From assembly GCF_003334255.1 (NCBI RefSeq), contig NZ_QOWU01000062.1: 27,246 bases of DNA, one strand, 5' to 3'. Shown here one piece after another: positions 12,001 to 15,000 of this stretch. Position numbers: made by a program. The stretch is from Escherichia coli. GTDB lineage: Bacteria; Pseudomonadota; Gammaproteobacteria; Enterobacterales; Enterobacteriaceae. Within the stretch, counting starts at the first letter, position 1. Each line of letters opens with the position of its first letter.

Positions 12001-15000
12001 CTGACTCCAGAAGATCAGGGATCCACGGATACAGATATTTCAGTGCGTTCTCCATCCGGCTGATACTGGATGCGTCCACAGGCAATCCCTGCTCAGTCAA
12101 AAGAGATGACAGTTCACGCATCGACACACTTTTGCTTAATTGCTCTTCATAAATCATCCGTGCTTTATGGATTCCCTGAGCCTTTTCAATAAACGTCAGT
12201 TCGCCCCTGACTTCATTCTCAGCCAGATGGCCAATGACACACTGAAGCCGCCCCGGCCACGGTTTGAAAAGCACATGAATACGGTAGAAACGCTGCTCGC
12301 CGGTCTCCTCCCACAGTTCTCTCAGGATCTGATAACGAGTGTTACCACCATCGCTGAAGATGTAGATATCCGGCTCACTCTCCGGTATCCGGGTGACCTT
12401 TGGCACCGTATCCAGTCCGCGGGAGAAAATTGAACTTTTAATATCGTCGTACCGGGGATTGCGCGTGGTTCTCGGGTTATCAGGATTAGGGCGCAACTGA
12501 TCCAGCGTCAGAACCATGGGCGTTTCCCCCAGGGCAACCACGTTACCGGTCTTACTGGTCTGGCGCCCCGGTTGCATGATGGCGGCCCCCAGATCAAGGG
12601 AATGATTTCGCTTAATTGACATACGCATTGCCTCCGGAACGGTCAAAATTCCAGCCACGTTCAAACGGTGAAAACAGGGTGTAACGACCATCGAAGCTCA
12701 CCCGTATCGTACCGGTCGGTCCCTGTCGCTGTTTGCTCACAATGATTTCCGCCACGCCCTTATCCAGAGTGCCGGGGTTGTAAACCTCGTCACGGTAAAT
12801 AAACATAATGAGGTCAGCATCCTGCTCCAGCGCCCCGGAATCACGCAGGTCACCGTTGTTTGGTCGTTTATCTGCCCGCTGTTCCACCTGTCGGTTAAGC
12901 TGCGACAGTGCGAGCACAGGGCATCCAAGTTCTTTCCCCAGCGACTTGAGGGCTCGGGATATTTCCGCAATCTCCTGAGTGCGGTTTTCCTGGTCCGGTG
13001 AACGAATCAACTGGAGATAATCGACCATTATCAGGGAAGGTCTGCCATACAGACGCACATAACGACGGGCACTGGCGCGCAGTGATGACGGAGTCTGAGA
13101 TGACGTGTCATCAATGATCAGGCGGTTACCTTCACCGGCAAATGTCCCCTCCTGCATGAACTCACCCATTGTTGCCGTAAGTCTCGCCCACTCCTCATCG
13201 TCCATCATGCTGCTGCGAAGACGAGTCAGCTCCACCCGGGACAGCATCGACAGGGTACGCAGAATCAGCTGCTCCCTGGACATTTCTATGCTGAACAGGA
13301 ATACCGTTTCATCGGTCCGCTCACGCAGGGCATTAAGACACAGAGTGAGTCCAAGGGCCGTTTTCCCCATCGACGGACGTGCTGCCAGAAGGATAAGATC
13401 CCCGGGCTGCAGGCCACAGGTCATCTCATCCAGTTCATCAAACCCCGTTGGGGTGCCCGTCATCCCGCCCGCCCTCAGTCCTTCTTCCAGCTGACGCAGG
13501 GCCAGCTCCATTGCGGAGGAAAGGCTCACTTCACTGCGCTCATGCAGCATGCCTGTCTGGGAAAGAGAAAAAAGTCGCCGTTCCGCGGATTCAAGAACTG
13601 CGCGCGGAGTGGCATCCGGCGATGCAACATCAGCAACCAGAGAATTACCGGTTTCCTGAAGCTGCCGCAGCATACTCTTTTCCGCCACAATACGGACATA
13701 AGCCATGATATTGGCTGCTGAAGGTGTATTCTTACTGAGCTCAGCCAGGTAAGCGAAGCCGCCCAGTGCCTCAATATTGTGCGTTTTCTCAATATGCTCA
13801 CTCAGCGTGATGAGGTCGAACGGCTGACCGCTGACTGCCAGCTCTGACATAGAGCGGAATATCACCCGGTGCACAGCCAGAGAAAAATCCTCCCCCCTGA
13901 GCATCAGCACCACTTCATCCCAGCGATCATTATCAAGCATCAGGCCGCCAAGCACAGCCTGTTCAGCATCAACGGAGCGCGGAATATAGCGTTCAGCCAT
14001 GGTGTATCCTCCCTCTCTGACTGCCGGAAACCCGGCTATGTGAAAAAAGGAAAAAGGGTGCCGGACGAACAGTTGCAGGGCATAAAATGCCCATAACTGC
14101 CTGTACGTTTTCAGACCGGTGAGTTTGCCGACCCCGGTCTGAAGGTACGGACAGCATCTTTATATTCATAACACTTTGACTTAATAAGGAAAAAATATGA
14201 ATACAAGTTATCAACAACTGCCGTCCGGCATTGGTTCTGAAGTGAAATACACCCTGCAGTTCTGGCTGCTGAGTAACGGAAAGGTCATGACGGAAAAAGA
14301 CGGGCTCTGTAACCCCTTTCCCCTGAACTGTATTGAATCGGCTCATCCTTTTACTCCGTTTCAGCAGAATCAGTGGGTTGAACTGGACACTGTCGGGCCG
14401 AATGGACCGGTGAAAGCGACATTCCTTGTGCACAGCGTTCTGTATAAACTGAAACGTCAGGGTGGCTCCCTGAATGATGCCGGCCGGCCTGAATACGGCC
14501 GGTGCATTGCTCACTGGCACACTGACGTGTTTGTTGAGAAAAAAGCGCTGCCTGACTGGCTGAGAGCATTCCACACTGACGTTTCGCACTCGTAAAAACA
14601 CGTTCAGCCCGACGGGTCATATTTTCCAGCCACCCGTCGGGGAAAATGTCAGCACCATCACGGGGAAACAAAATCGCTTTCCATTCAGGGTATGAGCGCG
14701 GAATACCTCCGGAAGCATTCCGGCTCAGACAGCGACTCACAGTGCAGGCAGCACGGAATGCATATGTTGCGATGCTCTCATCATATGTTGCGATGTTCTC
14801 ATTATTGCCTTTCTGCCGTTCCACCCGCTCTTCAGCATCAAATGCCAGTGCAGCAAGGCTTGCCCAGCACATGCAGTTCACTGAATTCCCCGGAACGCTC
14901 TGCAGCTCCCGGCGCACCATGTTGACCTCAGCACTGAAAAAAGCGTTCTCATCGCCTTCAAGGGCAGCCAGATGCAGCGGAAGCCAGACCTGACTGAACC

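What the first reader, a model, noticed from the sequence alone, without database searches (positions are those of the whole stretch)
14351..14595. 245-bp antisense overlap between the 132-aa plus-strand ORF and the tail of the 300-aa minus-strand ORF
Seen: the two ORFs overlap on opposite strands. The plus ORF has an RBS, CUG-rich codon usage and a downstream hairpin. The overlapping part of the minus ORF is Q/S/C/A-rich, as expected when a CUG-rich gene is read on the other strand. Inference: the minus-strand gene is probably shorter than the ORF (lost stop or pseudogenised by insertion of the plus-strand cassette), or the track ORF is a read-through artefact.
Basis: partly seen in the sequence, partly recalled or inferred. 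Interest (0 to 1): 0.4.

Follow-up and report, generated by a model that had tools for sequence, protein, structure and literature searches.

The report
Unannotated gene behind an ORF's tail
Two genes in an E. coli genomic island face each other and each reads past its useful end into the other, so the 245-bp overlap is one real but unannotated small gene lying under an unconstrained tail of its neighbour, not a case of double coding.

Summary
The 245-bp antisense overlap (14351-14595) is real. The window is the parA-orfX-dnaB-parB module of an SPI-7-type island in E. coli 2015C-3121.

The plus-strand 132-aa ORF is a genuine conserved gene. Relatives of 33-59% identity and similar length sit at the same place in four or five diverged island lineages. 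Its dN/dS is 0.23-0.29 inside the overlap, the same as outside it. RefSeq does not annotate it in any locus examined.

Only residues 1-234 of the minus-strand 300-aa ORF ("orfX") behave as a protein. Its homologues that lack the plus gene (Salmonella, E. coli EC554, Erwinia) stop there, on the dnaB start codon. Residues 235-300 have dN/dS 1.1-1.45, are predicted disordered, and occur only where the plus gene is present. The orfX stop codon is forced by a conserved Phe-Thr in the plus protein.

The last 14 plus-ORF codons in turn run over the conserved orfX C-terminus. So the overlap is two read-through tails and the functional cores abut near 14552.

One point is unexplained: the tail is never truncated in any lineage (joint chance about 0.003).

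In passing: a 176-nt, covariation-supported structured element lies on the minus strand upstream of dnaB and again upstream of orfX. It has no Rfam match.

The parts
14197..14595 (+). 132-aa gene, real but not annotated in RefSeq. It encodes a small all-beta protein of unknown function with conserved motifs ESAHPFTP and WHTDV.
   Evidence: Homologues at the same position: L007 134 aa at 59% identity, P0024/L005 119 aa at 55%, P0025 119 aa, P0026 134 aa at 33%. dN/dS is 0.22-0.31 over the whole gene. AF2 gives pLDDT 71 and pTM 0.64. RBS is AAGGA. There is no Pfam, NCBIfam, PHROG or PADLOC hit and no fold match.
14552..15253 (-). orfX conserved core, residues 1-234. It is a mostly helical protein of unknown function between parA and dnaB-PI.
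   Evidence: It aligns with every homologue, including those of 231-241 aa. dN/dS is 0.19-0.34 against the distant plus-gene lineages L007 and L005, 0.38 against Erwinia and 0.55 against the close EC554 form. AF2 pLDDT is 70-90 over most of the core. A strong SD, GGAGGTG, precedes the ATG at 15253.
14351..14551 (-). orfX read-through tail, residues 235-300. It is antisense to the core of the plus gene and carries no amino-acid constraint.
   Evidence: dN/dS is 1.14-1.45 and amino-acid identity 38%. It is absent from homologues that lack the plus gene. pLDDT is 30-39 with no secondary structure. Most of it is removed by a 55-codon in-frame deletion in L014, L015 and L043-L046 while the orfX core stays intact.
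14553..14595 (+). Last 14 codons of the plus ORF (LRAFHTDVSHS*). They are antisense to the conserved orfX C-terminus (RVFTSAKRQCGMLSAS) and form the plus gene's own read-through tail.
   Evidence: This DNA is shared with islands that lack the plus gene. The plus-protein C-terminus differs between lineages...SWYR in L005 and L023, and a different end in P0026. pLDDT is below 50 for residues 129-132.
14350..14355 (+). TTT ACT, the Phe52-Thr53 codons of the plus protein's HPFTP motif. Its antisense reading creates the orfX stop codon TAA at 14351-14353.
   Evidence: F-T is the only dipeptide that forces a stop in this antisense frame whichever synonymous codons are used. The tail ends at the same site in the window, L007, L005 and L023.
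14017..14023 (+). CTGACTG, one copy of a 7-bp direct repeat. The other copy is at 14552-14558. The two bracket the 535-bp segment absent from short-type islands.
   Evidence: Junction comparison with L013 and L008, with coordinates read.
14552..14558 (+). CTGACTG, the second copy of the 7-bp direct repeat. It marks the point where homology with short-type orfX resumes.
13993..14601 (-). 202-aa shadow ORF in the codon-aligned antisense frame of the plus gene and the upstream element. It is not a gene.
   Evidence: The frame is open in all five lineages only because it lacks TTA, CTA and TCA codons. Its dN/dS of 0.56-0.97 and amino-acid identity of 39-46% are worse than the plus frame.
14057..14232 (-). 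Conserved 176-nt structured element, copy 1, in the leader of dnaB-PI. A 17-bp closing stem (14057-14075 with 14215-14232) encloses three hairpins. It contains the antisense of the plus gene's ATG and first 12 codons.
   Evidence: Folding z-score is -7.9 on the minus strand. Consensus energy is -57.7 on the minus strand against -38.4 on the plus strand. The structure has 52 pairs, 96% of cells paired, and 11 pairs with compensatory changes against 3.9 +/- 1.4 in shuffles, 0 of 500 shuffles as high. No Rfam hit.
15341..15515 (-). Copy 2 of the structured element, in the leader of orfX. Here the plus-strand ATG is ATA and the downstream small ORF has been deleted.
   Evidence: Direct repeat of 85-86% identity. 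In strain S19-651 this copy is followed by an annotated 114-aa plus-strand ORF.
14608..14641 (.). 10-bp hairpin just beyond the plus-ORF stop, inside orfX codons PDGWLENMTRRA.
   Evidence: dG -22.3 and z -3.7. It is kept in L007 with one G-C to A-U compensatory change, is also present in L013 (which has no plus gene), and is not seen in L005 or L022. No U-tract on either strand.
12612..14000 (-). dnaB-PI, the SPI-7-type island replicative helicase. It is the gene downstream of orfX.
   Evidence: RefSeq annotation.
15590..16468 (-). parA family gene, upstream of orfX.
   Evidence: RefSeq annotation.

Best explanation
The locus holds two convergent genes whose reading frames each run past their functional end into the other gene.

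The plus-strand gene (14197-14595) encodes a conserved small beta-rich protein. Selection in the overlap acts on its frame. The minus-strand gene orfX encodes a core of about 234 aa. In this island type its frame has no stop at the end of the core, so ribosomes read a further 66 codons through the antisense of the plus gene. They stop at the TAA created by the plus protein's invariant Phe-Thr codons.

The tail is therefore translated but unconstrained sequence. Its apparent conservation between islands is a shadow of the plus gene. In the other direction, the last 14 codons of the plus ORF are a by-product of running over the conserved orfX C-terminus. The two functional cores abut at about 14552.

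Shown: both ORFs and their overlap; which frame is under purifying selection; where homology with the short homologues ends; and the forced stop.

Inferred: that the tail is actually translated; that the arrangement is ancestral and the short form arose by deletion between the 7-bp repeats; and that the plus gene is expressed.
For: - Plus gene conserved at the same position in diverged islands.
- dN/dS in the overlap: plus frame 0.23-0.29, orfX frame 1.19-1.45. Plus-frame synonymous differences are as high inside the overlap (pS 0.59-0.65) as outside it (0.53-0.70), so nothing constrains second codon positions of the tail.
- orfX core dN/dS 0.19-0.34 against tail 1.14-1.45.
- Short homologues end at ...GMLSAS and overlap the dnaB ATG. 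Homology resumes at 14553.
- The tail is predicted disordered.
- The stop is forced by the F-T dipeptide.
- In-frame deletion variants lose the tail and keep the core.
- The 300-aa ORF is intact in more than 1,200 sequences, so it is not a sequencing artefact.
Against: - The tail is open in all 17 distinct sequences from four or five lineages. Per-lineage chance is 0.15-0.44, and the product is about 0.003 for four independent lineages. This hints at some selection against truncating it.
- Tail amino-acid identity (38%) equals core identity in the most distant pair.
- There is no expression evidence for either product, and no sigma-70 promoter match for the plus gene.
- RefSeq/PGAP annotates orfX at full length and omits the plus gene in all 13 loci inspected.
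Confidence: 0.8

Rival explanations
1. The tail's amino-acid sequence is free, but the reading frame is kept open by selection. Translation of orfX through the antisense of the plus gene would be useful in itself, for example to prevent Rho-dependent polarity on dnaB-parB, or to keep the operon mRNA from pairing with the convergent plus-gene transcript.
For: - No truncated tail in any of 17 distinct sequences or any of four or five lineages.
- P(open | plus protein) is 0.15, 0.34, 0.34, 0.44 and 0.19.
- The null model was checked: observed/expected antisense stops is 0.98 in island genes.
- The minus-strand RNA over the tail is C-rich, C/G 1.18 against 0.81 in flanking genes.
Against: - The lineages are few and not fully independent, and one was found through its long orfX.
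- About 350 nt between the orfX stop and dnaB stay untranslated anyway.
- The deletion variants show that a much shorter tail is tolerated.
- The C/G bias is simply what the antisense of any gene would show.
Confidence: 0.13
2. True dual coding: residues 235-300 of orfX are a functional domain and both frames are under selection throughout 14351-14595.
For: The tail is always open and of conserved length. It aligns between islands at 38% identity.
Against: - Tail dN/dS exceeds 1, and plus-frame synonymous sites, which are tail second positions, are saturated.
- The tail is absent from the Salmonella, EC554 and Erwinia homologues, which keep the core.
- It is predicted disordered.
- Its conserved length is explained by the forced F-T stop.
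Confidence: 0.04
3. The RefSeq annotation is right: orfX (300 aa) is the only gene here and the plus ORF is a chance antisense ORF.
For: PGAP omits the plus ORF in all inspected RefSeq loci. The plus ORF has no family match.
Against: - The plus frame has the lowest dN/dS and the highest amino-acid identity of all six frames. This also holds in the 154 bp where nothing overlaps it except the shadow frame.
- Invariant motifs and conserved length persist down to 33% identity.
- AF2 gives a moderately confident beta fold from only six sequences.
- Some GenBank records do annotate it.
Confidence: 0.03

Closest known systems
Convergent (tail-to-tail) gene overlaps and antisense 'shadow' ORFs in bacterial genomes
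   Same: Two convergent genes share their 3' ends. A long ORF stays open on the opposite strand of a real gene. Conservation in the second frame is imposed by the first. (General knowledge; the signature was tested here.)
   Different: Typical convergent overlaps are a few bases long, whereas this one is 245 bp. The shadow here is not a free-standing ORF. It is fused in frame to a real, conserved gene, so it is presumably translated. It ends at a stop dictated by the partner's conserved dipeptide.
parA-dnaB-parB replication/stabilisation module of the ICEHin1056 / SPI-7 / PAPI-1 / ICEclc island family
   Same: The window carries the same module in the same order. RefSeq names the helicase 'SPI-7-type island replicative DNA helicase'. 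The module is described as conserved and needed for transfer in PMC3739013.
   Different: In ICEHin1056 parA is followed directly by dnaB. Here a variable stretch between them holds orfX, the plus gene and repeated structured elements.
Shi of ICEclc, the small protein encoded between parA and parB that arrests cell division together with ParA
   Same: orfX occupies a comparable slot downstream of the island's parA (PMC6812849).
   Different: The shi gene is only about 280 bp, so Shi is a small protein, and it is HicA-like. SPI-7 is reported to lack a shi homologue. orfX has a helical core of about 234 aa with no HicA or any other Pfam match.
Frpo/ssi single-strand promoters of plasmid leading regions. 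This is a comparison for the structured element only.
   Same: A repeated, highly structured intergenic element sits in front of successive genes of a conjugative element's establishment region (PMC11541004).
   Different: There is no -35/-10 consensus. The architecture is a branched four-way junction rather than one long hairpin. Sequence similarity to Frpo was not tested. Whether the folded strand is the transferred strand is unknown.

Membership tests
Bona fide dual-coding antiparallel gene overlap | Purifying selection detectable in both reading frames across the shared segment | tested here: not met
   In 14351-14552 the plus frame has dN/dS 0.23-0.29 and the orfX frame 1.19-1.45. Plus-frame synonymous sites are not depressed relative to the non-overlapping part of the gene.
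Bona fide dual-coding antiparallel gene overlap | The overlapping part of each protein is retained in homologues irrespective of the partner gene | tested here: not met
   The orfX tail is absent wherever the plus gene is absent. The plus-protein C-terminal 14 aa are not conserved in the L005/L023/P0026 lineages.
Antisense shadow ORF or read-through extension (non-functional coding) | Openness of the frame is explained by the sequence of the real gene on the other strand | tested here: inconclusive
   The end point is fully explained by the forced F-T stop. Openness is 15-44% likely per lineage, but it holds in all lineages, with a joint chance of about 0.003.
Antisense shadow ORF or read-through extension (non-functional coding) | No amino-acid-level constraint and no predicted structure | tested here: met
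   dN/dS 1.14-1.45. pLDDT 30-39 with no secondary structure.
Real protein-coding gene (applied to the plus ORF) | Conserved ORF with dN/dS well below 1 in diverged relatives, including where nothing else overlaps it | tested here: met
   dN/dS is 0.17-0.38 in codons 1-51 and 0.23-0.29 in codons 53-119. ORF length is 119-134 aa in five lineages.
Real protein-coding gene (applied to the plus ORF) | Evidence of transcription and translation | not testable with these tools
   An RBS is present. No promoter consensus was found. No expression data are available.
Shi / HicA-like ICE proteins (applied to orfX) | Small protein with a HicA-like fold or sequence | tested here: not met
   The core is about 234 aa and helical. 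There is no HicA_toxin or any other Pfam hit at E<=10 apart from a spurious one. The literature reports no shi homologue in SPI-7.
Known RNA family (applied to the structured element) | Match to an Rfam covariance model | tested here: not met
   No hit at E<=1 on either strand of 13800-15800.
Frpo-type single-strand DNA promoter (applied to the structured element) | -35 and -10 hexamers presented in a duplex stem of the folded single strand | tested here: inconclusive
   The linear scan found no sigma-70-like site. Hexamers within the stems were inspected only by eye, and none was conserved in the alignment.

The most novel reading that the evidence does not exclude
The orfX tail, the plus gene and the structured element could form one maintained regulatory module. 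In it, orfX would be kept stop-free through the antisense of the plus gene so that ribosomes cover that stretch of the operon mRNA. The 176-nt structured RNA that follows would gate expression of the island's DnaB helicase. The convergent plus gene would act as an antisense or transcription-interference brake. This would be a new way for an integrative element to control its replication genes.
Probability: 0.12. Interest if true: 0.55.

Novelty: new member of a known kind. Interest (0 to 1): 0.3.

Why it matters
The main value is for annotation. RefSeq records of SPI-7-type islands in E. coli list a 300-aa hypothetical protein whose last 66 residues are a by-product. They omit a conserved 132-aa gene on the other strand. 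In other assemblies gene callers pick the shadow frames instead.

The case also shows a general trap. 'Homologues align over the full length' is not evidence that an overlapping ORF segment is functional, because the partner gene imposes that conservation. Comparing substitution patterns frame by frame resolves it.

Both proteins and the structured element lie in the module that controls island replication and partition, which is required for transfer in related elements. They are therefore reasonable targets for study. None of this changes current understanding of how such islands work.

Tried and rejected
- More lineages of the plus gene: a scan of 100,044 species genomes found none. Viral contigs gave one near-identical copy. 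The metagenome scan gave 15 loci, all from two lineages already known. The test of tail openness therefore could not be strengthened.
- The 114-aa plus ORF after element copy 2 in other strains is not a paralogue of the 132-aa gene (BLASTP E=23). The 143-aa plus ORF of L026, Proteus and Providencia shares only its first 14 residues with it, and those lie inside the structured element.
- Hairpin after the plus stop as a terminator: rejected. It has no U-tract, it lies in conserved orfX codons, and it is also present where the plus gene is absent.
- Substitution counts among close E. coli relatives (95-98% identity) were too few to decide: 6, 8 and 3 changes by plus codon position in the overlap. 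The diverged lineages were used instead.
- A second genome-collection scan with a DNA pattern for the element found only Proteus mirabilis and Providencia stuartii, plus two hits (Paenibacillus, Burkholderia) that were not examined and are probably chance matches.
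Full report
**Where the window comes from**

The region matches E. coli 2015C-3121 (NZ_CP027340.1) at 100% identity. RefSeq annotates a minus-strand run of ParA family protein, hypothetical protein (the 300-aa ORF, WP_000099346.1), 'dnaB-PI: SPI-7-type island replicative DNA helicase' and ParB family protein. This is the replication/stabilisation module described for the ICEHin1056/SPI-7 island family (PMC3739013). I call the 300-aa ORF orfX.

**Checking the observation**

- The plus ORF runs 14197-14595 (132 aa) and orfX runs 14351-15253 (300 aa). 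They overlap by 245 bp.
- The RBS (AAGGA, 9 nt upstream of the ATG), the CTG bias (11 of 13 Leu codons) and a 10-bp hairpin after the plus stop (dG -22.3, z -3.7) are all present.
- From the coordinates, orfX codon position 2 falls on plus position 3, and orfX position 3 falls on plus position 2. Substitution patterns can therefore tell which frame is selected.
- RefSeq does not annotate the plus ORF in any of the 13 related loci I inspected. Some GenBank records do.

**The plus ORF is a real gene**

Relatives occur at the same position, between the 3' end of orfX and dnaB-PI and convergent with orfX, in diverged islands:
- L007: 134 aa, 59% identity. The gene caller missed it there and called antisense ORFs instead.
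- P0024/L005: 119 aa, 55% identity.
- P0025/L023: 119 aa.
- P0026/L022: 134 aa, 33% identity.

All share invariant blocks such as ESxHPF and WHTDV.

Nei-Gojobori estimates between the three best-sampled lineages give dN/dS 0.17-0.38 for codons 1-51, where nothing but a shadow frame overlaps. They give 0.23-0.29 for codons 53-119, inside the overlap. AlphaFold2 with only six sequences gives a moderately confident beta fold, pLDDT 71 and pTM 0.64.

No function could be assigned. There is no family hit, no fold match, and very few relatives anywhere.

**Only the first 234 residues of orfX behave as a protein**

- All homologues align up to ...RRAERVFTSAKRQCGMLSAS.
- Homologues in islands without the plus gene stop there, and their stop overlaps the dnaB start codon. 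These are Salmonella and E. coli EC554 at 241 aa and Erwinia at 231 aa.
- DNA homology between the window and that short form resumes exactly at 14553.
- dN/dS is 0.19-0.34 for the orfX core against the distant plus-gene lineages L007 and L005, and 1.14-1.45 for residues 235-300.
- Synonymous sites of the plus frame are second codon positions of the tail. They are as saturated inside the overlap (pS 0.59-0.65) as outside it (0.53-0.70), so nothing constrains the tail's amino acids.
- AlphaFold2 predicts a helical core and an unstructured tail with pLDDT 30-39 for residues 240-300.
- A 55-codon in-frame deletion found in several strains and metagenomes removes most of the tail and the plus-gene core but leaves the orfX core intact.

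**Why the tail looks conserved**

The tail aligns between islands at 38% identity. That is as high as the core in the most distant pair. It also always ends ...AE[ET]E.

Both facts follow from the plus gene. The plus gene is better conserved than orfX and drags the antisense frame along. The orfX stop TAA (14351-14353) is the antisense of TTT-A in the invariant Phe-Thr of HPFTP. F-T is the only dipeptide in the protein that forces a stop in this frame whatever the synonymous codons.

**The overlap is mutual**

The conserved core of the plus protein ends near residue 118. Its last 14 codons (14553-14595) lie on DNA that encodes the conserved orfX C-terminus. That DNA is present even in islands without the plus gene, and this end differs among plus-protein lineages. 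The two functional cores therefore abut near 14552, and the 245-bp overlap consists of two read-through tails.

**Direction of the event**

The plus gene and orfX diverge in parallel: 59%/53% identity to L007 and 55%/36% to L005. The short form belongs to the closest relative of the window's orfX (76%). A 7-bp direct repeat, CTGACTG at 14017-14023 and 14552-14558, brackets the 535 bp missing in the short form.

I infer an old arrangement with a secondary deletion in the Salmonella/EC554 lineage, rather than a recent cassette insertion. The ancestral state remains open, because Erwinia is also short.

**An unexplained residue**

Every orfX tail next to an intact plus gene is open right up to the F-T site. 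That covers 17 distinct sequences in four or five lineages, and in L022 the tail runs beyond that site.

I resampled synonymous codons while holding each plus protein fixed. The chance of an open tail per lineage is 0.15, 0.34, 0.34, 0.44 and 0.19. The product is about 0.003 for four lineages treated as independent. The null model reproduces antisense stop frequency in the island's well-supported long ORFs (observed/expected 0.98), and only 1.7% of 80-codon windows are open in this frame in general.

This hints at selection against truncation without selection on sequence, for example to keep the operon mRNA covered by ribosomes. The sample is small and one lineage was ascertained through its long orfX, so I treat this as a rival reading at low probability.

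**Other ORFs**

The 202-aa minus ORF (13993-14601) is the codon-aligned shadow of the plus gene. It is open in all lineages but scores worse than the plus frame.

**The repeated element (noticed in passing, partly followed up)**

- Location and distribution: the 225-bp direct repeat (14009-14233 and 15293-15516, 85-86% identity) lies upstream of dnaB-PI or orfX in many SPI-7-type islands. These include islands in Proteus and Providencia, and there are up to three copies in 4 kb.
- Structure: it folds into a four-way junction closed by a 17-bp stem, with z -6.9 on the plus strand and -7.9 on the minus strand.
- Which strand: on the minus strand the consensus structure is much better (-57.7 against -38.4 kcal/mol). 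It has 52 pairs with 96% of cells paired. Eleven pairs show compensatory changes against 3.9 +/- 1.4 in shuffles (0 of 500), and slid controls pair at about 37%. It also has many G-U pairs that would be C-A mismatches on the plus strand. The folded strand is therefore the sense strand of orfX/dnaB.
- Known families: no Rfam family matches.
- Link to the plus gene: the element contains the antisense of the plus gene's ATG and first 12 codons. This explains why unrelated plus-strand ORFs in other islands share the N-terminus MNTxxQLPSGID.
- Function: unknown. It could be a structured leader, an intercistronic RNA or a single-strand DNA site.

**Verdict**

The notions of pseudogenisation, ORF artefact and cassette insertion are not.

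This is an ordinary kind of event, but it is unusually long and conserved, and it affects annotation.

Noticed in passing
window 14057-14232 and 15341-15515 (minus strand); also L024, L025, L026, L005, L007, L008, L013-L015, L027, L029: A repeated 176-nt element lies upstream of dnaB-PI and orfX. It has a covariation-supported four-way-junction structure on the minus strand: 52 pairs, 11 with compensatory changes, 0 of 500 shuffles as high. There is no Rfam match. In minus sense it is followed by a U-rich tract and then the gene's SD. Whether it acts as RNA or as single-strand DNA, and what it does, are unknown.
   Followed up: partly
window 14197-14235; L026:2635-3066; L029:2820-3251; L013 about 2460-2540: Unrelated plus-strand ORFs in different islands share the same ATG and first 13-14 codons (MNTxxQLPSGID/DID). 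That stretch is the 3' arm of the element's closing stem and one arm of a hairpin. Amino-acid changes there (G to D, S to F) co-vary with the opposite arm, so the conservation is structural and not at the protein level.
   Followed up: partly
window 15465-15590; L002:3178-3522: In the window, element copy 2 has ATA instead of ATG and is followed only by a 38-codon remnant. In strain S19-651 and others, about 325 bp more are present, encoding an annotated 114-aa plus-strand ORF whose end overlaps the parA stop by 7 bp. The window has lost this gene.
   Followed up: partly
window 14608-14641: A 10-bp hairpin sits inside the most conserved orfX codons (PDGWLENMTRRA). It is kept in L007 through a Gly-synonymous change paired with a Thr-to-Ile change. 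It is also present where the plus gene is absent. Its purpose is unknown.
   Followed up: partly
window 14761-14802: A tandem 21-bp duplication (CATATGTTGCGATGYTCTCAT, two copies) lies inside orfX. It encodes the repeated ENIATYD/ESIATYA, and one copy is missing in P0007.
   Followed up: no
L004:2836-3416, L024:2774-3034, L025:2493-3031: The stretch between parA and dnaB-PI varies between islands. Some carry one or two small same-strand ORFs (86-107 aa) translationally coupled to parA, either instead of orfX or in addition to it. Whether any is the Shi/HicA-like protein of ICEclc was not checked.
   Followed up: no
L007:1625-2236, L027:389-1120, L029:2601-3332: Gene callers and ORF lists favour long shadow ORFs (203-243 aa) antisense to the small plus-strand genes and the element. 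In L007 the called genes are the orfX ORF with its tail plus a 122-aa shadow, and the real plus gene is missed.
   Followed up: partly
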